Positions 9,363-25,906 of a stretch of 64,000 nt of DNA are shown piece by piece. Below the pieces are notes generated by a model, which ran no database searches, was not told the origin of the DNA, and saw only the letters and a program-made list of their open reading frames with translations. Source of the stretch: an uncultured Thermoleophilia bacterium (GTDB lineage: Bacteria > Actinomycetota > Thermoleophilia > UBA2241); assembly GCA_963702475.1 (NCBI GenBank), contig CAVPCT010000006.1, positions 96,001 to 160,000 of the forward strand. The letters run 5' to 3'. How positions within the stretch are numbered: position 1 is the stretch's first letter; the number at the start of each line of letters is the position of its first letter. The position numbers and the translations under genes are program-made.

Positions 9363-9401
9363 CCGGCGAGGCCGTGTGGCGCTGCCGCACGGCCTCGCCG
9401 G
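9363..9401. terminator. GC-rich hairpin between hpr and the next gene
   Basis: ccggcgaggccgtg-N11-cacggcctcgccgg inverted repeat; no U-tract. Confidence 0.35.
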
Positions 9402-9427
9402 CTCAGCCCGAGACGAGGAGAAGCGAC

Positions 9428-9763
9428 ATGGAGCTGCGCGCAGAGATCGACCCCGGCGTGTGCGGGTATTCCACCGCCGTGACCGCGAGGTCCGACGACG
9501 GCCGGCACGTCGAGTTCACGTTCGAGTGCGACTGCGACCTCATCGCCGCGCTCGCGGACAAGGTCGCGGAGATCCAGCCGGTCGACGCGATCGCCACGCT
9601 GAGCCCGGACGAGAACGCGGTCCTCGCCGAGGCCCGCAAGATCCTGCAGGGCGCCGGCTGCTGCGAGGCGTGCGTGGTGCCGCAGGGAGCGGTGAAGGCC
9701 ATGTACATCATCACCGGTCTGGCGCTTCCGCGGAACGTCTCGATGAAGCTCCGCGACGAGTGA
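9428..9763 (+). CDS. Small Cys-rich hypothetical protein (resembles DUF6951-type proteins as I recall them)
   Basis: GAGGAG RBS; PGVCG...CDC...CCEACVVP.G.VKA...GLALP. Confidence 0.7.
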   Translation: MELRAEIDPGVCGYSTAVTARSDDGRHVEFTFECDCDLIAALADKVAEIQPVDAIATLSPDENAVLAEARKILQGAGCCEACVVPQGAVKAMYIITGLALPRNVSMKLRDE

Positions 9764-9859: not shown

Positions 9860-10954
9860 GTGCTGTCCAGCGAGGTCTCGCCGCCGTGCCCGGTCAACAC
9901 GTGGAACGAGTGGGACCCGCTCGAGGAGATCGTGGTCGGCATCGTCGAGGACGCCCTCATCCCGCCGTGGGAGACCATCACCCCGGCGGTGGTCCACGAC
10001 CGGACGCAGTGGCCGTTCTTCCAGGCCGAAGGCGGCGCGCGCTGGCCGGCCGAGCTGCTCAAGAAGGCCGAGGCGGACGTCGAGGCGTTCGTGCACATCC
10101 TCGAGGCCGAGGGCGTCACCGTGCGCCGGCCCGAGCGGTTCGCCTGGGACCAGCCGATCGCCGCGCCGGGCTGGTCCCTGCCCAGCTCCTGCTACGCGCT
10201 CATGCCGCGTGACGTGCTGCTCGTGGTGGGCGACCAGATCATCGAGGCGCCCATGGGCTGGCGCAGCCGCTTCTTCGAGCACCACGCCTACAAGAGCCTG
10301 TGCAAGGAGTACTGGCGGGGCGGGGCGCGCTGGGTCTCGGCCCCGCGCCCCGAGCTCACCGACGCCGGCTACGAGCCCGACTTCGTGCCGATGGAGGAGG
10401 GCGAGTCGCAGCGCACCATCGCCACCGAGTACGAGCCGCTCTTCGACGCCGCGGACGCCATCAAGTGCGGCGCCGACCTCTTCATCGCCCAGTCCAGCTG
10501 CTGCAACGCCTTCGGCATCGAGTGGCTGCGCCGTCACCTGGCGCCCGAGATCACCGTGCACGAGGTCGAGGTCTACGACACCCACCCCATGCACATCGAC
10601 GCGACCTTCTACCCGCTGGCACCGGGCAAGCTGCTGGTCCATCCGGAGCGCTGCGCCAAGGTGCCGGACATGTTCGAGAACGCCGGCTGGGACGTCCTCA
10701 CCTGCCCCGAGCCGGACATGTGTGTGGACCACCCGATGTTCAACTGCTCGCGCTGGATCAGCATGAACGTGGTGCTGCTGGACGAGGAGCGCGTGATCGT
10801 GGCCAAGGGCGAGGAGCGCCTCATCAGCGCTTTCAGGCAGTGGGGCTTGACGCCCATCGAGTGCCCGTTCTACGACTTCGAGACCATCGGCGGTGGGTTC
10901 CACTGCGCCAGCGTGGACATCCGCCGGCGGGGGACGCTGCGCTCGTACTTCTGA
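9860..10954 (+). CDS. Amidinotransferase (Arg:Gly / inosamine-phosphate amidinotransferase family)
   Basis: NEWDPLEEIVVG, PRD, EAPM.WRSRFFE, FDAAD, HIDATF, GGGFHC (Asp-His-Cys triad). Confidence 0.92.
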   Translation: MLSSEVSPPCPVNTWNEWDPLEEIVVGIVEDALIPPWETITPAVVHDRTQWPFFQAEGGARWPAELLKKAEADVEAFVHILEAEGVTVRRPERFAWDQPIAAPGWSLPSSCYALMPRDVLLVVGDQIIEAPMGWRSRFFEHHAYKSLCKEYWRGGARWVSAPRPELTDAGYEPDFVPMEEGESQRTIATEYEPLFDAADAIKCGADLFIAQSSCCNAFGIEWLRRHLAPEITVHEVEVYDTHPMHIDATFYPLAPGKLLVHPERCAKVPDMFENAGWDVLTCPEPDMCVDHPMFNCSRWISMNVVLLDEERVIVAKGEERLISAFRQWGLTPIECPFYDFETIGGGFHCASVDIRRRGTLRSYF

Positions 10955-10997: not shown

Positions 10998-12086
10998 CTA
11001 CCTGCCCTTCCAGAGAAGGTACGGGCCCTCTGCGGCCTCCTCCGGCGTGAGCTCCAGGGGGAAGGTGACGGTGCGGCCCTCGGCCGCCGACCGGTACGCG
11101 GCGTAGACCACCTCGAGCGAGACGCGCCCGTCCGCGCCGGTCTCCAGCGGCGGGCGATCGTCGAGCACGCAGTCGGTGAAGTGCTGCATCTCCTGGGGCA
11201 TGCCGTAGTTGTAGTACTCCTCCGCGATGGCGTAGCTGTAGCCGAGGGTGGAGCCTTTCTCCACCGAGTAGCCGTAGCCGACGTCGCTGTAGGCCAAGAG
11301 CGACGACTGCTGCATCATGTCGCCGTGGCAGGTGCCGGCGCTGCCCTGGATGTCGAGGCGGTCGTCCATCCCTCCGGGCTTGGCCCAGCTGCCTTCGATC
11401 ACGCCCAGGCGGTCGCCCGCGAAGCGGATGGTGACCAGGGCGTGGTCCTCCAGGTCGGTGCGGTCGCCGTGCACGAACGTGCCCAGCACCGCCGTGACGC
11501 TCTCGACCGTCGGCTTGTCGTACAGCCACCGGATGACCTCCACGCTGTGGCAGCCCATGTCCATCATCACGCCGCCGCCGGCGAGGCGGCCGTCCCAGAA
11601 CCAGTCCGAGTGCGGCCCGTAGTGGGTCTCGCCGTGCCTGATCTGGAAGACGCGGCCGAAGGCGCCTTCGTCCATCAGGTCCTTGGCGCGCACGTAGCGC
11701 GGCGCGAAGCAGATGAGCTCGGCGTACATGAGCTTGACGCCGGCGCGCCGGGCGGCGGCGATCATCTCGTCCGCCTCCGCCATGGTGCGCGCCAGCGGCT
11801 TCTCGCACACGATGTGCTTGCCCGCCTCGGCCGCTGCAACGGCGATGTCGCGGTGCACGAAGTTGGGCGCGCCGATGCAGACCATGTCGACGTCCGGGCG
11901 CTCGAGCATGCGCCGCGCGTCGTCGTAGGCGGCGTCGAGCCCATACGTCTGGGCCAGCTTGCGGGCCCTGGCCATGTCCGGGTCGGCGACGGCCAGGACG
12001 CGAGCTCCTTTCACGCGTTGGAACGCGAGCGCGTGCTGGTCACTGATGAGCCCGGCTCCGACCAGGCCGACGCCGATCTCGTCCAT
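10998..12086 (-). CDS. Gfo/Idh/MocA family oxidoreductase
   Basis: GLVGAG.I, GKHIVCEKP, GGGVMMDMGCH. Confidence 0.92.
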   Translation of the reverse strand: MDEIGVGLVGAGLISDQHALAFQRVKGARVLAVADPDMARARKLAQTYGLDAAYDDARRMLERPDVDMVCIGAPNFVHRDIAVAAAEAGKHIVCEKPLARTMAEADEMIAAARRAGVKLMYAELICFAPRYVRAKDLMDEGAFGRVFQIRHGETHYGPHSDWFWDGRLAGGGVMMDMGCHSVEVIRWLYDKPTVESVTAVLGTFVHGDRTDLEDHALVTIRFAGDRLGVIEGSWAKPGGMDDRLDIQGSAGTCHGDMMQQSSLLAYSDVGYGYSVEKGSTLGYSYAIAEEYYNYGMPQEMQHFTDCVLDDRPPLETGADGRVSLEVVYAAYRSAAEGRTVTFPLELTPEEAAEGPYLLWKGR

Positions 12087-12118
12087 CGTCTGTCTCCTCG
12101 TTCTTCGCAGGTGGAGGT

Positions 12119-13582
12119 TCAACCCAGGGCCGCGTCGGCCGCGTCCACGATGCGGCGCAACTCGGCCTGGACGTCGGCGGGGAGCGGCTCGGGGCGGTGC
12201 TCGGCCACGACCCGCCGCGCCTCGTCGCGGGCGCGCTGCGCCAGGTCGGTCGCGCCGGCCGCCTGCCAGGCAGCGAGCACGTCACGGTCCCACAGCCTCG
12301 GCTGACTCGCCTCACGCATGTGCCGCAGCGTGTGGTCGGTGGAGATGAACTCGCCGCCCGGTCCTACCTCGTGGATGAGGTCCACCGCCAGCGTCTCGCG
12401 GCTGACCGGCACGCCGCGCACCAGCTGGCGGATGAGCGCGATGGCCTCGTTGTCCATGACCATCTGCCCCAAGTCGCACGTCATGCCCGATTCGAGCATC
12501 CCCGCACCGTAGATCAGGCTGGCCCCTGCCAGCGCTGGCGCAAGTCCGGTGAGGGTCTTCTCGTAGGCCGTCTGCGCGTCGCTCACCTTGGAGTCCGCCT
12601 ACAAGCCGGCGACCCAGCACGGCATCTCGTAGAGGGCGCTGAGTTGCGCGACGCAGGCGTTGAGCAGCGCCGTCTCGGGCGTGCCGACGGAGGCGGTGCC
12701 GAGGCGAAGGTCCATGGCGGTGCTCGATGAGGAGTAGATGACGGGCGCGCCGCGCTCGGCGAGCTGGACCATCACGGTCCCGGCCAGGACCTCGGCGTTG
12801 TGGACGACCAGCGTACCGGCGAGCGTCTGGGGAGTGGTGCCGCCCGACATGCACATCGCGAGGATACTCAGGGGCAGGCCGTTGCGGGCCGCGAAGAGGC
12901 AGACGTCGGTGCCCTGCTCCGTGAGCTGCAACGGGCTCAGCGAGCACATGCCCATGCCGAGGAAGGGTCGTTCGCGCAGCTCGTCGTGGCCGCCGGCCAC
13001 GGCCGCGGCCAGATCGAAGCACGTCGCCTGCTCGGCTTTGCTGAGCGGTCCGAACATCATCGGCTTCGTCACGTGCGGCAACGCCGCCGCCAGGTGATGC
13101 ACGGTGGCCAGCTCTTCGGGGCAGTCGCGCGGGGTGATCGCCGCCTCGTACACGTCGATGTCGCTGGCCCAGTCCACCACCCTGCAGATGTCGGCGACGT
13201 CGGCGGTGCGCGCCGGGCGGTTCTCGCCCGTCTCGAGGTCGTTCACTTTCGGAGCCTCACCGAAGTTCATGAAGGCCAGGCGGCCGTCGCCCAGCATCAG
13301 GTCGTGCCGCGGGTCGCGGCCGCACCAGCGGATCAGCGGCGGCGCCGAGCCGACACAGTCCTCCACCACGCTCGCCGGGATGCGCACGATGCGGCTGTCG
13401 TCGTCGACCACGCAACCGCCGTCGCGGAACACCGCGCGCGCGTCCGCGGCCTCGACGAGGACGCCGGTGCGTTCAAGCACCTCCAGGGTGGAGAGGTGGA
13501 TGTCGTGCAGGTCGCTGCCGCTCAGGGGAGGAGCGGCGATGCCCTGCGTGCGCGGGAGCCCCGCGTACTCGCCTCGTTTCAT
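12119..13582 (-). CDS. mttB: Trimethylamine methyltransferase MttB family, pyrrolysine-type (in-frame TAG at codon 328)
   Basis: ORFs 12599..13582 and 12119..12586 share a frame and are separated only by TAG 12601-12599: YEMPCWVAGL-TAG-ADSKVSDAQTAYEK; joined product 487 aa. Confidence 0.9.
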
Positions 13583-13649: not shown

Positions 13650-14933
13650 TCATGCTATCGCCCCGGCCAGCGAGTCCAGGGCGTGGAACGCGCGCGTGAT
13701 CGGGCCTGCCGGCCCGGCGCGCGGCTGGCTCGAGAGCTTGACTACGACGATGCCCGCGCCGGCGTCGACGTAGAGCATCTGCCCGTACATGCCGACCCCC
13801 AGCAGCACCGCACGGCCGGGAGCCGGCTCGGCCACCCAGAAGCCGCCGCGGTAGGAGCCTCCCGGCAGCATGTCAGCGTCGTCCGAGGCGGCGAACACGG
13901 CCCTGTCGCCGTTGCGCCGTGCGTCTTCCAGCCACCAGTCCGGTACGACCTGCCGGCCGTTCCAGCACCCGTCCTTGGCCAGCATCTGGCCGAAGCGCCC
14001 CAGGTCGCGCAGGCTGCTGCAGAGCCCGCCGTCGAGCAGGGCGCTGCCGGCGCCGTCCAGCAGCACGTAGGCGTCGTGCTCCGTGCCGAGCTTGCCCCAC
14101 ACCTCGTCGCGGATGAGACGGGGCACCGGCGCGCCCGAGGCGCGCTCGAGCACCCACCCGAGCACGTCCGTGTTGAGCGACACGTAGTGCAGCGCGGCGC
14201 CGTGCGCGCCGCCGGGCGCGGTGGCCGTCGCGTAGTCGTAGATCGAGCCGGGCTCGTCGGCGGCGCGGCGCGGCTTGAGTCCGCAGAGGCGGTCCAGCCG
14301 GGAGTCCTCGCTGTCGGCGTCCTCGTGGTCCTCCGTGTAGGCGATGCCGACGGTCATGTCCAGGAGGTGACGCACGGTCGCCCCAGCGTACGCGCTGTGC
14401 GCCAGCTCCGGCACGAGGTCTGTCACGACTCGGTCCGGGTCCAGGAGGCCGCGCTCGGCCAGGCAGGCGGCCACGCAGGAGCCGAGCGACTTGGTGATGG
14501 AGTGCCACAGGTGCGGCGTGCCCGGCGCGAGCGTGCCGAAGTAGCGCTCGCAGAGGACCCGCCCGTCAAGCAGCACCAGCACGCCGTCGGTGTCGGTCGC
14601 GGCGAGCATCTCCGCGAACGACCATGTGCCCGGGGGCGCTCCCGCCGAGGCGTCGCCGACGTCCACGAGCTCGAGGTCGTCGAGCGCGGCGGGAGCCGCG
14701 GCCAGCTCGACGACCGGCTCGTGGCGCGTCGAGACGTCGGCGGTGCCGACCACCTCCCGCGCGTGCTGCATGAACCACTGCGTGCGGCGCGGGTCGGCGT
14801 ACACCTGATCGGCCCGCACGCGCCGGCCGGGAGGCGGCGGGAAGCCGCGCATGAGCGTCGCGTCGAACGTGCTCGGCGCCGACGCGCCGGGCTCGCGCGC
14901 GGCTCCGGCCTCGTGCCCGCGCGTCGTGGTCAC
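13650..14933 (-). CDS. Serine hydrolase, beta-lactamase fold (NylB/6-aminohexanoate-dimer hydrolase-like)
   Basis: SxxK (HSITKS), Y.S.NTDVLGW, G.GMYGQ.LYVD. Confidence 0.85.
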   Translation of the reverse strand: MTTTRGHEAGAAREPGASAPSTFDATLMRGFPPPPGRRVRADQVYADPRRTQWFMQHAREVVGTADVSTRHEPVVELAAAPAALDDLELVDVGDASAGAPPGTWSFAEMLAATDTDGVLVLLDGRVLCERYFGTLAPGTPHLWHSITKSLGSCVAACLAERGLLDPDRVVTDLVPELAHSAYAGATVRHLLDMTVGIAYTEDHEDADSEDSRLDRLCGLKPRRAADEPGSIYDYATATAPGGAHGAALHYVSLNTDVLGWVLERASGAPVPRLIRDEVWGKLGTEHDAYVLLDGAGSALLDGGLCSSLRDLGRFGQMLAKDGCWNGRQVVPDWWLEDARRNGDRAVFAASDDADMLPGGSYRGGFWVAEPAPGRAVLLGVGMYGQMLYVDAGAGIVVVKLSSQPRAGPAGPITRAFHALDSLAGAIA

Positions 14934-14937
14934 GCGC

Positions 14938-15732
14938 TCAGCCGCCGGCCCCCGGCAGAGCCGGTGGCGCCATGCGGGGGTCGGCCCAGAAGCCCTGCAT
15001 GATGCCTCCGTCCACGCGGATCGTGATGCCGGTGACGTACTCCGCCTCGTCCGAGGCCAAGAAGAGGACCACGTTGGCCTGATCGCGGGGCAGCGCCGGA
15101 CGGCGCAGGGGGATCCGCTCCATGTAGCCCCGGTACGTGTCCTGGTCGTCGGTGAAATCCATCATCGGCGTCATCGTCATGCCGGGGGCCACCGCCACGC
15201 AGCGCACGCCGAGGTGCGCCAGCTCGAACGCCATGCTCTGGGTGAGCAGGTTCACGCCGCCCTTGGCGGCGTTGTAGTCGGCGTAGGGCGACTCCACGAT
15301 GAACGAGTTGCACGACGAGATGTTGACGATCACGCCGCCGCCGTGCTGCACCATGTTCCGGGCGGCGGCTTGGCTCGTATAGAAGTAGCCATTCAGGTTG
15401 ATGTCGATGACGCGCTGCCACTGCTCCGGGGTGATGTCGAGGATGCCGACCATAGGGGCGATGGCCGCCGCGTTCACGAGCACGTGGATGTGGCCGCGCC
15501 GCTCGGCGACGCCGTCGACGGCCGCCCGCACCGCGGCGGGGTCGCTCACGTCCAGTGCCGCGGCCTCGATGCGCTCCTCCGGCCCTCCGGCGCACGTCTC
15601 GGCGAGGCCTTTCTCGTTGAGGTCGACCGCAACCACGAAGGCGCCCTCTTCGGCGAAGCGCCAGCTGAACTCCTGGCCCATGCCCTGCGCTGCCCCGGTG
15701 ACGATGACCGTCTTGCCCTGGAACCTTCCCAT
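14938..15732 (-). CDS. SDR family oxidoreductase
   Basis: TGAAQGMG, VNAA, YNAAK, VDGG; GGAGGG RBS. Confidence 0.92.
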   Translation of the reverse strand: MGRFQGKTVIVTGAAQGMGQEFSWRFAEEGAFVVAVDLNEKGLAETCAGGPEERIEAAALDVSDPAAVRAAVDGVAERRGHIHVLVNAAAIAPMVGILDITPEQWQRVIDINLNGYFYTSQAAARNMVQHGGGVIVNISSCNSFIVESPYADYNAAKGGVNLLTQSMAFELAHLGVRCVAVAPGMTMTPMMDFTDDQDTYRGYMERIPLRRPALPRDQANVVLFLASDEAEYVTGITIRVDGGIMQGFWADPRMAPPALPGAGG

Positions 15733-15767
15733 GTCCACCCTCCGATGGCGTAGTGCGCCGTCTCCGC

Positions 15768-16991
15768 CTACCGCCGCGGCGCGCCGGGGAGCCCGAGGGG
15801 CTCGTCGCCGCGGATCTCGCGCAGCAGCTCGATGTACTCGCAGAAGTTCTCGAACGGCATGTCGATGGGGACGAGGTGGTCCGGGCTGGGGAAGTACGGC
15901 CCCGTGTCCGCCAGGGCGCGGACCTTGGTCAGCACCTCGTGGCGCAGCGACGCCTTGTCCTTCATCAGCTCACGCTTGTCGAGTCCCCCAGCGAGGATGA
16001 TCTCCTTGCCGTACTTGCGGCGCAGCGCGAGGGGGTCCGTGCCGGCCGCGATCTCGAGCGGCCAGAACAGGTTGATCCCAGCATCCAGCCAGATCGGCAC
16101 GAGCTCATCGACGTTGCCGTCGCAGTCGAGGTAGAGGACGTCACAGCCGGCGTCGCGGATGACCTTGTTGAGCCGCTCGTAGCGGGGCAGCATGAAGGTC
16201 CGGACCATCTTCGGGCTGATCATCGGCCCGCTCTTGTAGGCCATGTCCTCCCAGTACCACACCCAGTCGAGGCGGATGTCCCTGGTCACCCTCTTCACCA
16301 TGGCCATCTCGAGCTGCAGCACGGTCTCCATCATGTCCTCGACGAGGTCCGGGTCGTCGTAGAAGAGGTACATGAGGTCCTCGGTGCCGACCCACATGTT
16401 GAGGTAGCCGAAGAACCCGCCCACCTCCATCGACACCGGGCAGTCCAGCGCGTTGATCGCGGCCGCGTACGCCTCCCAGTCGGCGGGGTAGCGGCCGGGC
16501 GTGTCGGGGTCGAGCCTCGCCTTCACCCGCGCCCAGGAGCGCCGGTCCTTGACCGGATGGTCGAGCCAGGCGGGCATGTTGAACGCCTTGCCCTTGAGCA
16601 GGCGCTCACTGATGCCGGCGCTGTCCCGCACCACCACGCTCGTCTCGTCCTCCTCCAGTACCTGCGGGGTGAACGGCGGGTTGAGCAGGAAGGAGTGGTC
16701 GTGGGCGACCACCCCGGGCACGTACTCGTACATGCGCGTGCCCGCGTCCATGCCGCTGTGCACCTCGGCCAGCGACCGGGAGGGGTCGAAGCCGAAGAAC
16801 TCGTCGACCGGGCTGGGTGTGCCGTAGTCGAGGTCGTCCACGCCGAGAAAGCCGGCCGGCGCCCCCTGGGCGACCCAGGCCTGGATCGTCTCGGGCCAGA
16901 AGATGTGGATGCCGTTGCCGAGGATGCCGAAGTCGCCCAGGCGTTCTCCCCGGCAGATCTCGCGGAACCGCTGTCTCGTGAATGCCGTCAT
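15768..16991 (-). CDS. Uroporphyrinogen decarboxylase-family methyltransferase (MT2-like, methylcobamide:acceptor)
   Basis: WEDMAYKSGPMISP, DCDGN, GGLDKR, PDHLVP; ATG overlaps the corrinoid gene TGA. Confidence 0.85.
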   Translation of the reverse strand: MTAFTRQRFREICRGERLGDFGILGNGIHIFWPETIQAWVAQGAPAGFLGVDDLDYGTPSPVDEFFGFDPSRSLAEVHSGMDAGTRMYEYVPGVVAHDHSFLLNPPFTPQVLEEDETSVVVRDSAGISERLLKGKAFNMPAWLDHPVKDRRSWARVKARLDPDTPGRYPADWEAYAAAINALDCPVSMEVGGFFGYLNMWVGTEDLMYLFYDDPDLVEDMMETVLQLEMAMVKRVTRDIRLDWVWYWEDMAYKSGPMISPKMVRTFMLPRYERLNKVIRDAGCDVLYLDCDGNVDELVPIWLDAGINLFWPLEIAAGTDPLALRRKYGKEIILAGGLDKRELMKDKASLRHEVLTKVRALADTGPYFPSPDHLVPIDMPFENFCEYIELLREIRGDEPLGLPGAPRR

Positions 16992-17645
16992 GACGCACCT
17001 CCCGCGGCGCCGGCGAGCAGGCGTTCCGCCTCGTCCACGGCGAGGATGCAGTCTTCGGCGAACCCTTCCGCGCCGATCTCGTCCGCCAGCGCGCGGGAGA
17101 CCGGTGCGCCGCCCACCATCACGGCGCACGCTGCCGCGCAGGCCGCGCTCCGCGAGCGCGTCGATGACGCGGCGGAACTGAGGCGTGGTCGTCGTGAGCA
17201 GCGCCGAGAGCGCCACGATGTCGGCGCGATGCTCCTCCGCGGCCGCGGCGAAGCTGTCGGCGCTCACGTCGGTGCCCAGGTCCACGACCTCGAAGCCGTT
17301 GCCTCTCAGCAGCATGCCCACGAGGCGCTTGCCGATGTCGTGGAGGTCGCCCTCCACGGTCCCGAGGACGACGACGCCCCTGCTCGGGCGCGCATCACCG
17401 GTGAGAGACGGCCGGAGCAGCTCCAGGCCGGCCGTCATGGCGCGCACGCTGATGAGGATCTCTGGCAGGTAGGCCTGCCCGTCCTTGAACAGCCGGCCGA
17501 GCTGCTGCAGCCCGGGGGTGAGGCCCTCGGTCAGGACCGCGTGCGGCGCGACTCCTTCTGCGAGCGCCTCGCCGACCAGCCTCACGACCGCGTTGCGGTC
17601 GCCGTCACGGACTCCATCGGAGATGCGCTCGAGCACCTCGTTCAC
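16988..17645 (-). pseudogene. Corrinoid (B12-binding) protein, MttC/MtbC-like, with a 1-nt insertion near 17123
   Basis: GTVEGDLHDIGK and ALSALLTTT motifs; conserved VMVGGAP...IGA.GFAED continues in the +1 frame; length 658 = 3n+1. Confidence 0.85.
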
Positions 17646-18374
17646 CTCGGGCCTCCCTCGTCGGGTGACGCGTGCAGGCTCCAGCCGGGGCACGCCGTGA
17701 CATCCGGTCCGGGCGGGGACGGCTGTGGGGGGACAGCGCCCTCCGCCAGCACGCTCGCCACGTCGTCGAAGTCGGTCCAGGGCCGGTAGCGGACGCCCGC
17801 AAGGGAGCACAGCTCCGCGAGCCGGCCCTTGGCGAACACCACGTCCGCGAACAGGGCGCCGTAGCGGTCCGTCATGCCGTCGCCGACGAACGCGGTCCAC
17901 TCCGCGGTCTCGCGCGCGCGCAGCACCGCCTGCGCCTTGCAGGTGCCGCACCCCGCGCACCGCCGGTGCGCGTGCGGGTGGGTGAGGCGAAGGCCGTCCG
18001 CGGTGCGTCTCGACCGCGTTCGCCAGCACGGGCACGTCACCGAGCCCGGCCGCGTCGAGCATGGGGCGCACGTAGAAGCCGAGTCCGTCGCTGACCACAG
18101 TGACCTCGGCCCCCACGTCCCGTGCCCGGCGGATGAGCGCCGGGAACGTGGGGTCGACGGCGAAGCGCTCGAGGACGTAGTCCACCATCTCGACCAGGGA
18201 GGCGCGCAGCATGCGGGTCTGCGCGCCTATCGCGTCCCGCAGCGAGACTCGCCCCGCGTAGGCCTCGTCGTCCAGCGCGCGCCAGTCGCCTTCGGCGAAG
18301 CGGGCGCAGACCGCGTTCCCCACGTCCGTGGGGCAGACGGTGCCGTCGAAGTCGGCGAGGACGGTCGGCATCAC
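17642..18374 (-). pseudogene. HAD-IB phosphatase (MtnX-like) with a 1-nt insertion near 18008
   Basis: DFDGT and VVSDG in frame 0; CAGCGTCK and VGDG.TD...FAK in the +1 frame; length 733 = 3n+1. Confidence 0.8.
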
Positions 18375-18495
18375 GCTTCAGTCCACCTCTCCATGAGGAT
18401 GATGTGCGAATCACTGCCGATGATCTGTTGTTTCACACATTCATTCGTACTTTTCACTTGCGGTCTCACATTACATGACGTACATTCGCACGGCA
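18375..18495. promoter_or_regulatory. AT-rich divergent promoter region of the DeoR divergon
   Basis: Local drop in GC; GTGCGAAT (18404-18411)...ATTCGCAC (18484-18491) inverted pair; repeated TCAC motifs. Confidence 0.45.
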
Positions 18496-19257
18496 ATGGA
18501 CGTTCTCTCACGGCGCGAGACCATCATCGAACTGCTCCAGGAGCACGGCGAGGTGACCGTCGCAGAACTGAGCGAGCGCACCGGGGTCTCGCAGATGACC
18601 ATCCGCCGCGACCTCGAGGCGCTCGAGCTCGAAGGAGTGCTGCGGCGCGTGCACGGCGGCGCCATCGACCTCGCCATGCGCGGCTACGCGGCGCCCTACT
18701 CGGTGCGCGCCAAGCAGGCCGCGGACGCCAAGGCGGCCATCGGCAGGGCCGCCGCCGCCATGCTGGGGGAACGCGAGACCGTCGTGCTCGACGTGGGGAC
18801 CACCACGTTGCAGATCGCCCGCGCCCTGCACGACCGCCGCAACCTCACGGTGCTCACGCCCAGCCTGCACATCGCCAACGCGCTGGCCCGCTACCGCGGC
18901 ATCCGTCTCATGCTCACCGGCGGTCAGGTGACGGCCGGCGAGGGTTCCCTGGTCGGGGACATGGCCGAAGGGGCGTTCTCGCGCCTGCGCTTCGACACGT
19001 TCGTCATGGGCATCGGCGGCGTCGACCTCGAGTCGGGGTGCACGGAGTACAGCCTCGAAGACGCTCGGGTCAAGCGCGCGGCGCTCGAGTGCGTGCGCCG
19101 CTGCATCGTCGTCGCCGACAGCAGCAAGCTGGGCAAGGTCACCTTCGCGCAGATCTGCGATCTCGAGAGGGTCGACGTCCTGGTGACAGACAGCGGTGCG
19201 GCCCCCGAGGTCCTGGCCGCGCTGGAGGCTGAGCACGTGGAGGTGGTGGTCGTCTGA
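18496..19257 (+). CDS. DeoR/GlpR transcriptional regulator
   Basis: VS..TIRRDL..LE..G.LRRVHGGA HTH; LDVGTTT, ADSSK; alternative start 18475. Confidence 0.95.
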   Translation: MDVLSRRETIIELLQEHGEVTVAELSERTGVSQMTIRRDLEALELEGVLRRVHGGAIDLAMRGYAAPYSVRAKQAADAKAAIGRAAAAMLGERETVVLDVGTTTLQIARALHDRRNLTVLTPSLHIANALARYRGIRLMLTGGQVTAGEGSLVGDMAEGAFSRLRFDTFVMGIGGVDLESGCTEYSLEDARVKRAALECVRRCIVVADSSKLGKVTFAQICDLERVDVLVTDSGAAPEVLAALEAEHVEVVVV

Positions 19258-20078
19258 TGAGACGCATCCAGGAGTTGTTCGGAGACAGAAGACCCCTGAT
19301 AGCCATGGCGCACCTGCGGGCGCTGCCGGGCACCCCACTGTACGACGCCGAAGCCGGGTTGGCCGGGGTGGTCGACGCGCTTCGTGCCGACCTCGACATC
19401 ATCCTCGCCGCCGAGTTCGACGCGGTCCTCTTCTGCAACGAAGGAGACCTTCCCTATTCGTTCAAGGCGGGGTACGAGGGCGTGGCGGCCATGACGAGGG
19501 TGGTAACGGAGCTCGCGCCCAAGGACCGGCCCTTCGGGGTCGACTTCCTCTGGGACCCGCTGGCCGCCCTCAACATCGCCGCGGCCACGGGCGGATCGTT
19601 CATCCGCTGCGTGCCGGTCGGGCGGTACGAATCGGACATGGGGCTGTGGAGCACCGACGTGGCCGGGCTGCTGCGCGAACGGCGTCGCATCGGCGCGGAC
19701 GGCGTGGCCACGTTCATGAACGTCACACCCGAGTTCGCCAGCTCGCTGGGCACGCGCAGCGTCACCGAGGTGGCGCGGTCGGCGGTGTGGTCCAGCCTGG
19801 CCGACGCCATCCTCATCTCCGGCCCACGGCAGGCGACCGAGCCTGACATGACCGTGCTGGCGCAGGTCAAGGAGACGCTGTCGGGCGCCGCGCCCGTCTT
19901 CGCCAACACCGGCGCCAAAGCCGCCAACGTGGCCTCCTTCCTCGAGACGGCGGACGGCATCATCGTCGGCTCCGACCTCAAGCGCGACGGCTACACGTGG
20001 AACGAGGTCTCCGCCGACCGCGTCGCCGCATTCACGGCCGCGGCCGGGCGCCGGGTGAGCCAAGCGGGCGTGGCGTGA
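19257..20078 (+). CDS. BtpA/SgcQ family protein
   Basis: HL.ALPGTP.Y, NEGD.P, NTG...NV, DG.IVGS.LK.DG. Confidence 0.9.
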   Translation: MRRIQELFGDRRPLIAMAHLRALPGTPLYDAEAGLAGVVDALRADLDIILAAEFDAVLFCNEGDLPYSFKAGYEGVAAMTRVVTELAPKDRPFGVDFLWDPLAALNIAAATGGSFIRCVPVGRYESDMGLWSTDVAGLLRERRRIGADGVATFMNVTPEFASSLGTRSVTEVARSAVWSSLADAILISGPRQATEPDMTVLAQVKETLSGAAPVFANTGAKAANVASFLETADGIIVGSDLKRDGYTWNEVSADRVAAFTAAAGRRVSQAGVA

Positions 20079-21529
20079 GCGTCCTGCTCGGCATCGACGT
20101 CGGCACCACCGGCACCAAGGCCCTGCTGCTGGATCCCGACCGCGGCGTGGTGGCGGAGGCGGAGCGTCCCAGCACGCTGCACTCACTTCACGCAGGGTGG
20201 GCCGAGGAGGACACGGACGAGTGGTGGGCAAACGTCTGCGCCATCACCCACGAGCTGCTGGACGGGAGCGAGCAGGACGTCCTGGGCATCGGCGTGACCG
20301 GCATGGTGCCGTGCACCATCCCGCTCGACCAGCGCGGTGTGCCGCTCCGCTGGTCGATCCAGCAGAACGACGCCCGGTCAGTCGTCGAGGTCGAGGAGCT
20401 CCGCCGGCGGCTGGAGGGCGCGGAGGTGCTCGAACGGACGGGCTCGGCGATCACGCAGCAGTCCACCGGTCCGCGTCTTCTGTGGCTCGCCGAACACGAG
20501 CCAGACGTGTGGCGCCGCACGCGTACGCTCATGGGGTCGTACGACTTCATCACCATGCGGCTGTCGGGGGCCCGGTCCGTCGAGGCGAACTGGGCCCTCG
20601 AGACAGGGCTGCTGGAGTTCGCGCGCATGGACTGGGCCGACGACGTGCTGGAGGCGTGCGGCGGCCGCAAGGAGCTCCTGCCGCCGATCCGCCGCTGCGA
20701 CGAGGTCGTCGGAGCCGTCACGCGCGAGGCCGCCGTCGCGACGGGCATCCGTGAAGGGGTCCCTGTCGTGGCCGGCACCGCCGACCACATCGGGTCCACC
20801 TTCGCCTCCGGCGTGCTCGACGAGGGCGACCTGCTGGTCAAGCTCGGCGGCGCCGGCGACATCATGCTGGCGGTGGACGCGCCGTTCGTGGACGACAGGC
20901 TCTATCTGGACTTCCACCTGCTGCCCGGCCGTTTCGTCCTGAGCGGCTGCATGGCCACGAGCGGCAGCCTCATCAAGTGGTTCCAGCGCGAGTGCGCCGC
21001 GGGCGCCGGTCTCGCCCAGCTGGACGAGGAGGCCGCGGCCGTGCCGCCGGGGGCGGGCGGCGTCATCTGCCTCCCCTACTTCCTCGGCGAGAAGACGCCC
21101 ATCAACGATCCCGAGGCCACGGGGGCCTTCGTCGGCCTGCGGCTCACGCAGGACCGCGGCCACCTGTTCCGCGCCGTGCTCGAGGGCATCGCCTACGGTT
21201 TTCGCCACCACCAGGAGGTCTTCGCCGACCGCGGTCACCGGCCGCTGCGAGCCCGGGTCACCGACGGCGGCTCACGCTCCCGCGTGTGGACGCAGATCAC
21301 CGCGGACGTCCTGGGACTGCCGCTCGAGAAGGTGACGCTGCGCAGCGGGTCCGCCTTCGCCGCGGCGTTCTGCGCCGGGATGGGTGTGGGCGTGTTCACC
21401 GGGTGGCGCGACGTCGACCGCTTCGCCTCAGTGGACGAAGTCATCGAACCGCAGCACTACGACGTGTACGACCGCGGCTACCGGGCGTACCGGGAGCTGT
21501 ACCCGATGCTCAAAGGGGTCCTGCCATGA
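20075..21529 (+). CDS. FGGY-family carbohydrate kinase (xylulokinase-like)
   Basis: LGIDVGTTGTKA, LPYFLGEKTP, AVLEGIAY, DGGSRS..W.QI.ADV. Confidence 0.92.
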   Translation: MSVLLGIDVGTTGTKALLLDPDRGVVAEAERPSTLHSLHAGWAEEDTDEWWANVCAITHELLDGSEQDVLGIGVTGMVPCTIPLDQRGVPLRWSIQQNDARSVVEVEELRRRLEGAEVLERTGSAITQQSTGPRLLWLAEHEPDVWRRTRTLMGSYDFITMRLSGARSVEANWALETGLLEFARMDWADDVLEACGGRKELLPPIRRCDEVVGAVTREAAVATGIREGVPVVAGTADHIGSTFASGVLDEGDLLVKLGGAGDIMLAVDAPFVDDRLYLDFHLLPGRFVLSGCMATSGSLIKWFQRECAAGAGLAQLDEEAAAVPPGAGGVICLPYFLGEKTPINDPEATGAFVGLRLTQDRGHLFRAVLEGIAYGFRHHQEVFADRGHRPLRARVTDGGSRSRVWTQITADVLGLPLEKVTLRSGSAFAAAFCAGMGVGVFTGWRDVDRFASVDEVIEPQHYDVYDRGYRAYRELYPMLKGVLP

Positions 21530-23917: not shown

Positions 23918-24937
23918 ATGAGCACCAACGGCCAGGTGGCGGCCGCGCCCGAGACCCGGGCGCGGCCCAAGAAGGCGCACCCCTTCGCTGCGCTCATCGG
24001 GCGCCGCCTGGCCTTGGGCGTGGTCACGCTCTTCCTCGTCTCCATCGTCATCTTCGCGGCCACGACCGTGCTGCCCGGCAACGCCGCGTACGCGGTGCTG
24101 GGGCAGCACGCCACCCCCGAGCGTGTGGCCGCGCTCGAGGCCGAACTGGACCTGGACAAGCCGGTGGTGGTGCAGTACTGGAACTGGATCTCCGGCGTTC
24201 TGCAGGGAGATCTGGGCGAGTCGTTCGCCAACGGCGATCCCGTGGCCAAGCTCGTGGTGCCGCGGATCGCCAACTCCCTGGTGCTCGTCCTCCTGGCCGG
24301 CGCCATCGGCACGCTTATCGGCGTGGGCCTCGGCATCCTCGCCGCGGCTCGACGTGACGGCTGGCTCGACACCACCCTCTCGGTGATCGCGCTGGCCGTC
24401 ACGTCGCTGCCCGAGTTCGTCGTGGCCATCGGGCTGGTGATGCTGCTCGCCTCGCTGGTGCTCCACTGGCTCCCGGCGGTGTCGTTCATCCCGCCGGGCC
24501 AGTCGCCGTGGGCCGAGCCCGCGCTGCTCGTGCTGCCGGTGGCCACGCTCGTCGTCGTCATCGTGCCGTACATCTTCCGTATGATGCGAGGCGCCATGAT
24601 CGAGGCGCTCGAGAGCGACTACGTTGAGATGGCCAAGCTCAAGGGCGCCCGCCGCCGCCGCGTGCTCCTCGTCCACGCCCTGCCCAACTCCATCGCCCCG
24701 ACGATCCAGGTGATCGGACTCAACCTGCTGTACCTGGCGGGGGGCATCGTGGTGGTCGAGTACGTCTTCGCGTACCCCGGCATCGGCGCGGGGCTCGTGG
24801 ACGGCGTCTCGGCGCGGGACATCCCCGTGATCCAGTTCATCACGCTGGTGCTCGCCGCCTTCTACGTGTTCATGAACATCCTGACGGACGTGGTGGCGCT
24901 GCTCGCCTCACCGCGGCGAAGGCTGCCACGCTCGTGA
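23918..24937 (+). CDS. ABC transporter permease (OppB/DppB)
   Basis: GDLGES, EAA-loop region DYVEMAKLKG, VEYVFAYPGIG. Confidence 0.93.
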   Translation: MSTNGQVAAAPETRARPKKAHPFAALIGRRLALGVVTLFLVSIVIFAATTVLPGNAAYAVLGQHATPERVAALEAELDLDKPVVVQYWNWISGVLQGDLGESFANGDPVAKLVVPRIANSLVLVLLAGAIGTLIGVGLGILAAARRDGWLDTTLSVIALAVTSLPEFVVAIGLVMLLASLVLHWLPAVSFIPPGQSPWAEPALLVLPVATLVVVIVPYIFRMMRGAMIEALESDYVEMAKLKGARRRRVLLVHALPNSIAPTIQVIGLNLLYLAGGIVVVEYVFAYPGIGAGLVDGVSARDIPVIQFITLVLAAFYVFMNILTDVVALLASPRRRLPRS

Positions 24938-25905: not shown

Positions 25906-25906
25906 C

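What the first reader, a model, noticed from the sequence alone, without database searches (positions are those of the whole stretch)
12119..13582. Pyrrolysine-type MttB: in-frame amber codon exactly at the Pyl site
Seen: two same-frame ORFs (327 and 155 aa) are separated by one TAG (12601-12599), reading YEMPCWVAGL-TAG-ADSKVSDAQTAYEKT. Together they give a full-length 487-aa MttB, and both halves are intact. Known: Methanosarcina and Desulfitobacterium trimethylamine methyltransferases carry catalytic pyrrolysine in the motif Y.LP..VAG.-O-.D.K..D.Q...EK near residue 330, and this context matches. Inference: this high-GC bacterium, probably an actinobacterium, decodes UAG as Pyl. That is rare outside methanogens, some Firmicutes and Deltaproteobacteria. 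Gene callers would split or pseudogenise this gene.
Basis: partly seen in the sequence, partly recalled or inferred. Interest (0 to 1): 0.9.

Follow-up and report, generated by a model that had tools for sequence, protein, structure and literature searches.

The report
Pyrrolysine-coding mttB in a Thermoleophilia actinobacterium
The "broken" gene is an intact methylamine methyltransferase whose internal TAG is almost certainly read as the rare amino acid pyrrolysine, in an uncultured high-GC actinobacterium that carries more than twenty such genes and keeps a small conserved RNA hairpin just after the TAG.

Summary
One in-frame TAG (window 12601-12599, minus strand) joins a 327-aa and a 159-aa reading frame into a 487-aa MttB, and it aligns with Pyl334 of Methanosarcina barkeri MttB (PDB 7xcl).

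The same genome holds pylB, pylC, pylD, pylT, pylSn and pylSc. It has 15 MttB paralogues with TAG at that same column, at least 7 TAG-bearing mtbB genes and one mtmB. All 9 metagenomic orthologues and the one in-genus orthologue keep the TAG. A pseudogene or an assembly error is excluded.

The organism is a Thermoleophilia-type actinobacterium, judged from the record titles of its nearest relatives. Pyrrolysine genes in Actinobacteriota MAGs were mentioned in print in 2023. This scan has also met them before on other genomes. The gene is therefore a new member of a known kind.

Three things go further:
- The Pyl gene set is unusually large.
- This paralogue sits in a conserved operon that is not typical for trimethylamine: corrinoid protein, URO-D methyltransferase, SDR, NylB-like hydrolase and a Gfo/Idh/MocA dehydrogenase.
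- A hairpin 65-87 nt after the UAG shows covariation and fixed rare codons, in Pyl-type mttB only. Published work reported no common structure there.

The parts
12119..13582 (-). Pyl-type mttB. It encodes 487 aa with pyrrolysine at residue 328. ATG at 13582, TGA stop at 12121-12119.
   Evidence: TIGR02369 gives 609.3 bits against a cut-off of 525. PDB 7xcl/7xcm MttB match at E 1e-103 to 2e-104 over residues 5-485.
12599..12601 (-). In-frame UAG, the pyrrolysine codon, equivalent to Pyl334 of M. barkeri MttB.
   Evidence: Aligned to the X of 7xcl_A. Same column in 15 paralogues, in 9 of 9 orthologues and in the G020 orthologue.
12502..12601 (-). Match to Rfam RF02510 PYLIS_3 ('pyrrolysine insertion sequence mttB'), covering the UAG and the 97 nt after it.
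   Evidence: 68.1 bits against a gathering score of 38, E 2.5e-13, model positions 1-100. The model has only 8 base pairs and 2 are non-standard here, so the match is mostly sequence.
12515..12537 (-). Conserved mRNA hairpin at nt 65-87 after the U of UAG. The 5' arm is 12537-12535 plus 12533-12528, the loop AGGG is 12527-12524, and the 3' arm is 12523-12515. It lies inside the codons for P-A-L-A-G-A-S-L.
   Evidence: RNAalifold on 10 orthologues. Covariation on 84 distinct Pyl-type segments. Fixed rare codons. Codon-resampling control. Peak of synonymous-site conservation.
17015..17645 (-). MttC-like corrinoid protein gene (B12-binding_2 plus B12-binding). In this assembly it is split by a 1-nt frameshift near 17123.
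   Evidence: Pfam. tblastn of the G020 and L139 corrinoid proteins matches frame -3 at 17645-17124 and then frame -1 at 17122-17015. Contigs of other runs lack one base at 17123 or 17127 (table 4).
15768..16991 (-). URO-D-family methyltransferase, MtaA/MtbA/CmuA-like. It is the presumed methylcorrinoid:acceptor methyltransferase (MT2).
   Evidence: PF01208. TIGR01463 gives only 30.7 bits against a cut-off of 235. 85% identical to the separate 407-aa gene of G020.
17937..18374 (-). HAD-IB phosphatase-like gene at the head of the operon. Its extent is approximate. It appears fused to the next genes only because of frame errors.
   Evidence: PF12710. TIGR01488 56.9 bits against a cut-off of 45. 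It is a separate 216-aa ORF in L139. It is absent from G020.
14938..15738 (-). Short-chain dehydrogenase (SDR).
   Evidence: PF13561 and PF00106. Conserved upstream of the hydrolase in L137-L141 and L117.
13650..14933 (-). Beta-lactamase-fold serine hydrolase. Its nearest solved relative is the 6-aminohexanoate-dimer hydrolase NylB.
   Evidence: PF00144. PDB 2zm0 at E 1.5e-49. It lies directly upstream of mttB in every orthologue locus with enough flank (L136-L141, L117).
10998..12122 (-). Gfo/Idh/MocA oxidoreductase directly downstream of mttB. The likely ATG is at 12086. It ends in a terminal TAG at 11000-10998.
   Evidence: PF01408 and PF22725. Its best relatives are sugar and inositol dehydrogenases, and none reaches an equivalog cut-off. 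78-87% identical downstream of mttB in L133, L136-L141 and L117.
18475..21529 (+). Divergent unit: DeoR-family regulator (18475-19257), BtpA/SgcQ-family protein (19257-20078) and FGGY sugar kinase (19997-21529).
   Evidence: Pfam and NCBIfam. The same divergent arrangement is found in L139, L141 and L117, and the DeoR gene also in L137.

Best explanation
Window 12119-13582 (-) is one functional gene for a pyrrolysine-dependent, corrinoid-dependent methylamine methyltransferase of the MttB type. During translation, Pyl-tRNA(CUA) reads the UAG at codon 328. The tRNA is charged by the split synthetase PylSn/PylSc with pyrrolysine made by PylBCD, all of which are encoded on contig C3 of the same genome. 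This places Pyl in the active site next to the conserved Tyr358, Gly108 and Met243.

By analogy with M. barkeri MttB, the Pyl imine adds the nitrogen of a tertiary methylamine and forms a quaternary adduct. One methyl group of the adduct passes to Co(I) of the corrinoid protein encoded in the operon. The neighbouring URO-D-family methyltransferase then passes the methyl on to an acceptor, probably tetrahydrofolate feeding the acetyl-CoA synthase pathway. RamA-like activases re-reduce the cofactor.

Shown here: the codon position, the family membership, the conserved catalytic residues, the complete pyl gene set, and conservation of the TAG and of the operon. Inferred: that Pyl is actually inserted, the chemistry, the acceptor and the substrate. 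I put about even odds on trimethylamine itself versus a related tertiary methylamine produced by the co-operonic hydrolase and dehydrogenases.

Because RF1 is present and about 15% of genes end in TAG, insertion must compete with termination. The conserved hairpin 65-87 nt downstream may bias that competition, but this is not shown.
For: Codon and family:
- The TAG aligns to Pyl334 (X) of 7xcl_A, E 1.4e-103.
- TIGR02369 gives 609 bits against a cut-off of 525.
- The equivalents of Gly110, Met249, Tyr364 and Gly372 named in PMC9842639 (passages read) are conserved. The Tyr is invariant in 92 of 92 Pyl-type relatives (9 orthologue-group plus 83 others), but present in only 1 of 17 non-Pyl ones, where Phe is commonest.

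Pyl machinery, with scores against curated cut-offs:
- PylSc 314.6 against 178.
- PylD 209.1 against 150.
- PylB 438.1 against 348.
- PylC 323.8 against 248.
- PylSn 126.2 against 51.
- tRNA-Pyl(CUA) lies at C3:641046-641118 and has a 6-bp anticodon stem.

Conservation of the TAG:
- 15 of 60 MttB domains in the genome have TAG at the Pyl column.
- All 13 full-length Pyl-type paralogues pass TIGR02369.
- 7 near-full-length mtbB genes and 1 mtmB each carry one TAG.
- PylSc is over its cut-off in 23 of 24 same-genus genomes.
- Pyl-type MttB hits are found in 30 of 31 same-genus genomes. By my count 142 of the 148 matches have exactly one TAG.
- The TAG is kept in 9 of 9 orthologue loci and in G020.

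Pathway context:
- The operon is conserved across those loci.
- RamA-like activases are at 3 loci.
- An acetyl-CoA synthase CdhC domain is present.
Against: - There is no protein or RNA evidence. No RNA run is on record as holding the gene.
- RF1 is present (477 bits against a cut-off of 423). TAG ends 395 of 2627 crudely called ORFs, so termination at this UAG must also occur to some degree.
- In this assembly the operon's corrinoid gene carries a 1-nt frameshift. The G020 orthologue of mttB loses its frame after about residue 430. These look like assembly indels, but real decay is not excluded.
- The operon does not look like a trimethylamine operon. It has a hydrolase, two dehydrogenases and no dedicated permease.
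- The URO-D protein is only weakly MtaA-like (30.7 bits).
- The genome is a MAG with 6.5% estimated contamination. The pyl genes lie on a different contig (C3) from the window (C6).
Confidence: 0.9

Rival explanations
1. The enzyme is Pyl-dependent but its physiological substrate is not free trimethylamine. It would instead demethylate a larger tertiary (N-methyl or N,N-dimethyl) amine that the NylB-like hydrolase, the SDR and the Gfo/Idh/MocA dehydrogenase of the operon release or modify. On this reading the 13 or more Pyl-MttB paralogues of this genome are a radiation of tertiary-amine demethylases. This rivals the best explanation only on the substrate.
For: - The operon corrinoid - URO-D - SDR - hydrolase - mttB - Gfo, with a divergent DeoR/BtpA/FGGY unit, is conserved at 67-87% MttB identity in L117 and L133-L141 wherever the flank allows.
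- The paralogue is only 43-57% identical to the other 14. It forms its own well-supported clade (99, FastTree).
- Its TIGR02369 score (609) is in the lower part of the range 549-734. The highest scorers include the copy in a classical TetR-mttB-mtbB-corrinoid-MFS cluster.
- Other paralogues sit beside aminotransferase plus aldehyde dehydrogenase plus acyl-CoA ligase, or beside an Orn/DAP-type decarboxylase.
- The subfamily has its own residues next to the active site: A110, C244 and L327, where other Pyl-type proteins have G, A and G.
Against: - It passes the equivalog model for the trimethylamine enzyme.
- All known catalytic residues are unchanged.
- The subfamily-specific residues are bulkier, not smaller, which does not suggest a larger pocket.
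- Gene neighbourhood alone is weak evidence.
- No paper in the library links Pyl-MttB to other tertiary amines (search: 2 papers, neither on this).
Confidence: 0.45
2. The UAG mostly terminates translation here. The gene would give a truncated 327-aa product, either as a decaying gene or as a conditional 'statistical' protein that is rarely completed.
For: - RF1 is present.
- TAG is a common stop: 395 of 2627 ORFs. Examples are the next gene downstream and pylD.
- There are frame errors nearby.
Against: - The 159 codons after the TAG keep full coding signature (GC3 0.92). They hold the catalytic Tyr358.
- The TAG and the downstream frame are conserved in 9 of 9 orthologues.
- A truncated product would lack part of the active site.
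- Synonymous sites just after the TAG are the most conserved of the gene, which is the opposite of decay.
Confidence: 0.05
3. The TAG is a sequencing or assembly error, or a recent nonsense mutation in a pseudogene.
For: The assembly does contain probable 1-nt indels in the same operon.
Against: - The same codon sits at the same column in 15 paralogues, in 142 of 148 in-genus matches by my count and in 92 of 109 MttB matches in metagenome loci.
- The feature is a codon, not an indel.
- Contigs of four other runs cover the place, and no difference is listed there. However, only 40 of 416 difference rows were shown.
Confidence: 0.01

Closest known systems
MttB of Methanosarcina barkeri (trimethylamine:corrinoid methyltransferase, Pyl334; PDB 7xcl, 7xcm, 7xcn; PMC9842639)
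   Same: Full-length homology (E 1e-103 over residues 5-485). UAG at the same residue. The Gly110, Met249, Tyr364 and Gly372 equivalents are kept. A corrinoid protein partner is encoded nearby.
   Different: The host is bacterial, with a split PylSn/PylSc. Thr111 is Glu here, as in 66 of the 67 other bacterial Pyl-type sequences that cover the position. The operon holds a hydrolase and two dehydrogenases instead of mttC-mttP. No coenzyme M pathway is expected, so the acceptor differs. That last point is inference.
Pyl-encoding mttB and mtbB reported as expressed in Actinobacteriota MAGs of Stordalen Mire (PMC10805028, passages read)
   Same: Same phylum and same kind of gene. Several of the nearest PylSc loci come from records titled as peat or fen Actinomycetota MAGs.
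   Different: That paper identified the genes by truncation at the amber codon. In the passages I read it does not describe the pyl gene set, the number of paralogues, this operon or any RNA element.
Olavius algarvensis delta-1 symbiont, described in 2007 as the bacterium with the most Pyl proteins (PMC1976440, passages read)
   Same: A bacterium with a split PylS, pylBCD and pylT, several Pyl methyltransferase genes and selenocysteine as well.
   Different: It has 8 Pyl genes (6 MtbB, 2 MttB). This genome has at least 21 intact ones (13 MttB, 7 MtbB, 1 MtmB) plus fragments. The phylum is different. That paper found no common RNA structure.
Rfam RF02510 PYLIS_3 and the PYLIS idea (PMC3639795, passages read)
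   Same: The 100 nt after the UAG match the family well above its gathering score.
   Different: [quoted passage not shown] The hairpin found here (nt 65-87) is not among the 8 pairs of the Rfam consensus. In the printed Rfam consensus two of its five innermost core pairs (nt 70-74 with 79-83) would be mismatches.
Non-Pyl MttB superfamily members such as MtgB of Desulfitobacterium hafniense (PDB 2qne, 9yce)
   Same: Same fold family (E 1e-62). 45 such paralogues are in this genome.
   Different: They have a sense codon at the Pyl column, they usually lack the Tyr364 equivalent, and they act on quaternary amines (PMC12155760, passages read).

Membership tests
Pyl-dependent trimethylamine methyltransferase MttB (TIGR02369 / PF06253) | Full-length similarity above the curated equivalog cut-off | tested here: met
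   609.3 bits against a cut-off of 525, profile positions 6-469 of 469. A Leu-for-Pyl paralogue also passes (636 bits), so this cut-off does not test for Pyl.
Pyl-dependent trimethylamine methyltransferase MttB (TIGR02369 / PF06253) | In-frame UAG at the position of Pyl334 | tested here: met
   Query residue 328 aligns with X of 7xcl_A in the motif VAG-x-O-x-D-x-K.
Pyl-dependent trimethylamine methyltransferase MttB (TIGR02369 / PF06253) | Active-site residues that work with Pyl (Gly110, Met249, Tyr364, Gly372 of M. barkeri) | tested here: met
   G108, M243, Y358 and G366 are present. Thr111 is Glu, as in nearly all bacterial Pyl-type sequences examined.
Pyl-dependent trimethylamine methyltransferase MttB (TIGR02369 / PF06253) | Host encodes pylT, pylS and pylBCD | tested here: met
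   All five proteins are above their curated cut-offs. tRNA(CUA) is found on contig C3.
Pyl-dependent trimethylamine methyltransferase MttB (TIGR02369 / PF06253) | Cognate corrinoid protein and reductive activase available | tested here: inconclusive
   A corrinoid gene is in the operon but is frameshifted in this assembly. Other runs' contigs lack the extra base. RamA-like genes lie elsewhere in the genome.
Pyl-dependent trimethylamine methyltransferase MttB (TIGR02369 / PF06253) | Pyl actually incorporated, and trimethylamine is the methyl donor | not testable with these tools
   This needs mass spectrometry and enzyme assays.
Rfam RF02510 PYLIS_3 | Score above the gathering threshold directly 3' of the UAG | tested here: met
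   68.1 bits against 38, E 2.5e-13.
Rfam RF02510 PYLIS_3 | The model's consensus secondary structure | tested here: inconclusive
   The model has only 8 pairs and 2 are non-standard here. The whole 120 nt fold no better than shuffles (z 0.09). The conserved hairpin is a different set of pairs.
Non-Pyl MttB superfamily (quaternary-amine methyltransferases) | Sense codon at the Pyl column | tested here: not met
   The codon is TAG here. The 45 non-Pyl paralogues of the genome carry V, C, T, S, L, A, G and other residues there.

The most novel reading that the evidence does not exclude
The hairpin 65-87 nt after the UAG (loop A-G-G-N) is a bacterial recoding signal, a working 'PYLIS' for mttB. 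It would help a cell that keeps RF1 and ends about 15% of its genes in UAG to insert pyrrolysine at more than twenty chosen UAGs. mtbB genes of the same genome carry their own strong hairpin centred at about the same distance from the UAG. A second, independent bold reading is that this genus has turned Pyl-MttB into a family of demethylases for diverse tertiary amines, the window's operon being one such pathway.
Probability: 0.3. Interest if true: 0.8.

Novelty: new member of a known kind. Interest (0 to 1): 0.55.

Why it matters
- Annotation. Standard gene callers are likely to split or discard genes like this one. This genome alone has more than twenty of them, so the capacity of soil, peat and sediment actinobacteria to consume methylated amines would be missed.
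- Ecology. That capacity competes with methylotrophic methanogens for the same substrates, so it bears on methane budgets.
- Substrate range. The size of the gene set and the varied neighbourhoods suggest that pyrrolysine chemistry is used on more substrates than the three classical methylamines.
- Decoding. The hairpin gives a concrete, mutable element for an old open question: how a bacterium tells a pyrrolysine UAG from a stop UAG.

Tried and rejected
- Global PYLIS-like fold. The 120 nt from the UAG fold no better than shuffles (-44.5 kcal/mol, z 0.09). Only the local hairpin stands out.
- Base after the UAG. It is G in 13 and A in 3 of 16 TAGs in MttB genes, but G is also the commonest base after terminal TAGs (129 of 320). 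There is no distinguishing context.
- Expression. No RNA holder is listed. One run guessed to be RNA (X20) gave small contigs over the gene. A guess of library type is no evidence, so nothing is claimed from it.
- Reads at the TAG. Only contigs could be laid. Contigs of X1, X2, X3 and X20 cover 12599-12601 and no difference is listed there. However, 376 of 416 difference rows were not shown, so this is only weak support.
- Further Pyl genes.
  - 57 of 395 TAG-ending ORFs have a coding-like in-frame continuation, against 162 of 2149 for TGA and 21 of 83 for TAA.
  - After removing the known methyltransferases, the remainder is near the TGA background.
  - I did not scan those candidates against Pfam.
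- Tree. The maximum-likelihood run did not finish. It was replaced by FastTree on 61 rows, which kept all Pyl-type rows after 92% de-duplication plus 8 non-Pyl outgroups and dropped the other non-Pyl rows.
- Literature. One search was badly framed and gave nothing useful.
- Gene neighbourhoods. Only 76 of the 152 neighbour ORFs called around the other paralogues went to Pfam (loci L120-L125). The neighbourhoods in L126-L132 were not scanned.
- Archaeal mttB. I could not test the hairpin in archaeal mttB DNA because none was at hand. Only the printed Rfam consensus was inspected.
- TAG stop usage was not compared with relatives that lack Pyl.
Full report
**1. The observation**

On the minus strand of the window an ATG at 13582, preceded by GGAGG, opens a frame that runs to a TAG at 12601-12599. 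The frame continues, still open, to a TGA at 12121-12119. The ORF list shows the two pieces as 12599..13582 (327 aa) and 12119..12586 (155 aa, counted from its first GTG). Reading TAG through gives 487 residues with the recoded position at 328, in the context YEMPCWVAGL-O-ADSKVSDAQTAYEKT. Both pieces have the third-position G+C of real genes of this genome (0.93 and 0.92).

**2. What the gene is**

- The read-through protein matches the solved M. barkeri trimethylamine methyltransferase over residues 5-485 (7xcm_A E 2.2e-104, 7xcl_A E 1.4e-103). In the printed alignment residue 328 lies opposite the X that stands for Pyl334 in 7xcl.
- It scores 609.3 bits on NCBI's equivalog model TIGR02369, whose cut-off is 525.
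- The structure paper (PMC9842639, passages read) names Gly110, Thr111, Met249, Tyr364 and Gly372 around Pyl334. Here they are G108, E109, M243, Y358 and G366.
- Glu in place of Thr111 is the rule in bacterial Pyl-type sequences: 66 of the 67 that cover the position.
- The tyrosine is invariant in 92 of 92 Pyl-type relatives. Only 1 of 17 non-Pyl relatives has it, and Phe is commonest there.

**3. The decoding machinery**

The window is G000:C6:96001-160000 of a 4.31-Mb, 9-contig assembly with 70% G+C. Estimated completeness is 93.8% and contamination 6.5%. Contig C3 carries the following genes.

| Gene | Position on C3 | Bits | Cut-off |
|---|---|---|---|
| pylB | 637885-638913 | 438 | 348 |
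| pylC | 638955-640109 | 324 | 248 |
| pylD | 640193-640975 | 209 | 150 |
| pylSn | 642228-642485 | 126 | 51 |
| pylSc | 657647-658372 (opposite strand, 15 kb away) | 315 | 178 |

ARAGORN finds one tRNA with anticodon CUA at C3:641046-641118, between pylD and pylSn. It has a 6-bp anticodon stem, a 3-bp D stem and an encoded CCA.

Release factor 1 is present (477 bits against a cut-off of 423). In a crude GC3-based gene call, TAG ends 395 of 2627 ORFs (15%), TGA 2149 and TAA 83. The gene just downstream of mttB and pylD itself both end in TAG. UAG is therefore ambiguous in this organism, not reassigned.

**4. More than chance, and not an error**

- Of 60 MttB-family domains in the genome that span the Pyl column, 15 have TAG exactly there: 13 full-length genes and 2 fragments. 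The other 45 have sense codons. Only one further TAG occurs in any of them, in a fragment.
- All 13 full-length Pyl-type paralogues pass TIGR02369 at 549-734 bits.
- The genome also has 7 near-full-length mtbB genes with one TAG each, plus fragments. It has one mtmB with a TAG and four MtmB homologues without one. That makes at least 21 intact Pyl genes.
- For comparison, the Olavius delta-1 symbiont was called the bacterium with the most Pyl proteins in 2007, with 8 (PMC1976440, passages read). A search for 'pyrroproteome' found no later paper. I cannot say the present number is a record.

**5. Relatives and taxon**

- PylSc is over its cut-off in 23 of 24 same-genus genomes and in 1 of 16 genomes of other families of the class.
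- In an even draw of 401 genomes (248 genera) of the phylum, only G000 and that one other genome had it.
- Pyl-type MttB matches (E <= 1e-100) occur in 30 of 31 same-genus genomes, at 0-16 per genome, with G000 the richest. By my count 142 of the 148 matches carry exactly one TAG.
- In named species-representative genomes, 561 stretches encode a PylSc relative. The 46 best (62-80% identity) are, by record title, 44 Thermoleophilia/Actinomycetota/Actinomycetes MAGs, one 'Deltaproteobacteria' and one 'Zixibacteria' MAG. Next, at about 55%, come Aminicenantes, Dehalococcoidia, Eubacteriales and Desulfosporosinus.
- The organism is thus a Thermoleophilia-type actinobacterium by the titles of its nearest relatives.
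- Near-identical copies of the gene's words occur in runs from 8 studies of sediment, wastewater, freshwater sediment and soil.

**6. What is already known**

[quoted passage not shown] A 2024 review of PylRS evolution contains none of the words Actinobacteria, Actinomycetota, Actinobacteriota or Thermoleophilia. Searches for pyrrolysine with Thermoleophilia, RBG-16-64-13 or Actinobacteriota gave nothing further on the subject. This scan has met Pyl-type mttB or mtbB in Thermoleophilia on at least six other genomes. The trait in this group is therefore known, though thinly described.

**7. This paralogue and its operon**

The window's protein is only 43-57% identical to the other 14 TAG-bearing copies. 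Among 31 genus genomes it has one close orthologue, in G020 at 87%, with TAG at codon 328. That copy loses its frame after about residue 430. Nine metagenome loci (L133-L141) hold orthologues at 67-78% identity, all with the TAG. In a FastTree of 61 rows they form a clade with the window's gene (support 99), sister to paralogue C3:1125947.

Wherever the flank allows, the neighbourhood is the same. It consists of a divergent FGGY kinase - BtpA/SgcQ - DeoR unit, followed by:
- a HAD-like gene, which is sometimes absent;
- a corrinoid protein;
- a URO-D-family methyltransferase;
- an SDR;
- a beta-lactamase-fold hydrolase;
- the Pyl-mttB;
- a second corrinoid gene, in L137 and L138 only;
- a Gfo/Idh/MocA oxidoreductase.

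The hydrolase is closest to 6-aminohexanoate-dimer hydrolase NylB (E 1.5e-49). The Gfo protein is closest to sugar and inositol dehydrogenases, none over an equivalog cut-off. The URO-D protein is only weakly MtaA/CmuA-like.

Other paralogues have other neighbours (which covers 76 of the 152 ORFs called):
- TetR-mttB-mtbB-corrinoid-MFS, the classical look, which holds one of the highest TIGR02369 scores;
- GntR - acyl-CoA ligase - mttB - aminotransferase - aldehyde dehydrogenase;
- mttB - Orn/DAP-type decarboxylase - corrinoid - non-Pyl MtmB homologue.

This pattern suggests that the substrates have diversified, but it does not show it. The subfamily-specific residues near the active site (A110, C244, L327 instead of G, A, G) are bulkier. 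That does not argue for a larger pocket. I leave trimethylamine versus another tertiary amine at about even odds.

**8. An assembly caveat**

The 868-aa ORF at 15768-18374 looks like a HAD-corrinoid-URO-D fusion, but it is an artefact. Corrinoid proteins of G020 and L139 match frame -3 at 17645-17124 and then frame -1 at 17122-17015. Contigs of other runs lack one base at 17123 or 17127, and another at 18008 (table 4). The operon most likely has three separate genes there. The window carries 1-nt indels that are probably assembly errors.

**9. Fate of the methyl group (inferred)**

The genome has RamA-like corrinoid activases at three loci and an acetyl-CoA synthase CdhC domain. This fits an anaerobic methylotroph that feeds methyl groups into the acetyl-CoA pathway.

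**10. The RNA element**

My first test, a fold of the 120 nt from the UAG, was negative (z 0.09). Earlier notes of this scan on other genomes mentioned Rfam PYLIS families and a hairpin about 66 nt after the TAG, so I tested that here.

*Rfam and the orthologues*
- Rfam RF02510 PYLIS_3 matches 12601-12502 at 68.1 bits against a gathering score of 38. That model has only 8 pairs.
- RNAalifold on 10 orthologues predicts a different, local hairpin. Nt 65-67 and 69-74 pair with 79-87, the loop is AGGG, and there is one compensatory change.
- Among 9 orthologue sequences, the share of identical synonymous codon pairs averages 0.607 (sd 0.095) over 473 windows of 15 codons. The 15 highest windows all lie in codons +4 to +37 after the TAG, with a peak of 0.922 at +21 to +35.

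*The wider set of Pyl-type segments*
- The set is 84 distinct segments from G000 paralogues, metagenome loci, Desulfosporosinus and Dehalococcoidia. In it 86.8% of cells pair.
- 35 cells changed on both sides, against 9.3 in shuffles (0 of 500 shuffles reach the observed value).
- The covariation score is 0.202, against 0.135 in shuffles (0 of 500) and at most 0.095 with slid partners.
- Pair 70-83 is U-A in 57 and C-G in 13. Pair 69-84 is G-C in 58, A-U in 13 and G-U in 5. Pair 72-81 is G-C in 78 and A-U in 5.

*Codon choice*
- The alanine codon at +24, whose third base opens the loop, is GCA in 92 of 92 Pyl-type segments.
- In non-Pyl relatives with alanine there, it is GCC in 21, GCA in 5 and GCG in 5.
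- GCA is 4.4% of alanine codons and TTG 3.6% of leucine codons in this genome.

*Tests within G000 alone, where G+C content cannot confound*
- 13 in-register paralogue segments show 8 U-A, 5 C-G and no mismatch at pair 70-83.
- They form 5.69 of 6 core pairs, against 3.52 (sd 0.26) when codons are redrawn from genomic usage (0 of 2000 redraws reach the observed value).
- On the FastTree topology the C-G state arises in at least three separate clades and reverts once (read by eye).
- The two paralogues that have Leu instead of Pyl, nested among Pyl-type genes, have lost the hairpin (1 and 4 of 6 core pairs). They are sisters, so this counts as one event.

*Comparison with print and with mtbB*
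- Published analyses reported no common structure for mttB (PMC3639795; PMC1976440). A search for PYLIS with mttB gave six papers, none describing a bacterial mttB hairpin by title or abstract.
- The seven mtbB genes of the genome each fold into a longer hairpin centred about 80 nt after their UAG, with a conserved rare GGA codon. A structure for mtbB is already in Rfam, by the account of PMC3639795.

*What remains open*
- What the mttB hairpin does is unknown. It is too far from the UAG to touch the decoding ribosome directly, so a role in recoding is a hypothesis, not a finding.
- The sequences are related, and the shuffle control does not remove that.
- The element lies in the most conserved protein motif. 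The codon-level controls address this but do not abolish it.

**11. Verdict**

The gene is a genuine Pyl-type mttB in a Thermoleophilia-type actinobacterium, a new member of a known kind that has already been seen in print in passing and elsewhere in this scan. It rises above the ordinary in three ways: the size of the Pyl gene set, the conserved atypical operon of this paralogue, and the covarying hairpin after the UAG.

Noticed in passing
window 17015-17645 and about 18008: The corrinoid-protein gene of the operon is split by a 1-nt frameshift near 17123. Contigs of other runs lack one base at 17123 or 17127 and at 18008. The apparent 868-aa HAD-corrinoid-URO-D fusion ORF (15768-18374) is therefore an artefact, probably of assembly indels.
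   Followed up: yes
G000:C4:59961-61352 and G000:C4:42557-43945 (outside the window): Two MttB paralogues nested among the Pyl-type genes have Leu (CTC) at the Pyl column. They still pass or approach the TIGR02369 score (636 bits for one). They have lost the downstream hairpin and the fixed GCA codon. This looks like a secondary loss of pyrrolysine.
   Followed up: partly
G000:C5:571067-572416, C4:65316-66659, C9:248475-249818, C2:42577-43938: Four full-length MtmB homologues have no in-frame TAG (221-308 bits on PF05369), beside one TAG-bearing mtmB (659 bits). One sits with a corrinoid protein, an Orn/DAP-type decarboxylase and a Pyl-mttB. Non-Pyl members of the MtmB family are little described.
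   Followed up: no
G000 mtbB genes, for example C3:655986-657347 and C9:308746-310107: All seven TAG-bearing mtbB genes fold into a long hairpin centred about 80 nt after their UAG (codons ...R-A/T-A-G-D-L-V-A-R...), with a conserved rare GGA codon in the loop region. This is about the same distance from the UAG as the mttB hairpin.
   Followed up: partly
G000:C3:637885-658372: The pyl genes are laid out unusually. pylB-pylC-pylD-pylT-pylSn are together and followed by a corrinoid-protein gene. pylSc lies 15 kb away on the other strand, convergent with a TAG-bearing mtbB that has a TetR/BetI-type regulator upstream. pylD itself ends in TAG.
   Followed up: partly
window 27787-29193 (+): A second, non-Pyl MttB-family gene (Val at the Pyl column) follows the Opp-type ABC transporter genes at 23918-27748.
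   Followed up: no
G000:C5:362180-368100: A cluster of mtbB and mttB fragments with internal TGA and extra TAG codons. It is either a stretch of decayed methyltransferase genes or a badly assembled region.
   Followed up: no
G000:C3:167171-167268: A tRNA-Sec (anticodon UCA) is present, so this organism probably also decodes UGA as selenocysteine in some genes.
   Followed up: no
window 9860-10954 (+): A 364-aa protein has no Pfam match and only a weak similarity to dimethylargininase (NF045660, E 2.2e-7). It lies next to a DUF6951 gene (9374-9763) and is not part of the conserved synteny.
   Followed up: no
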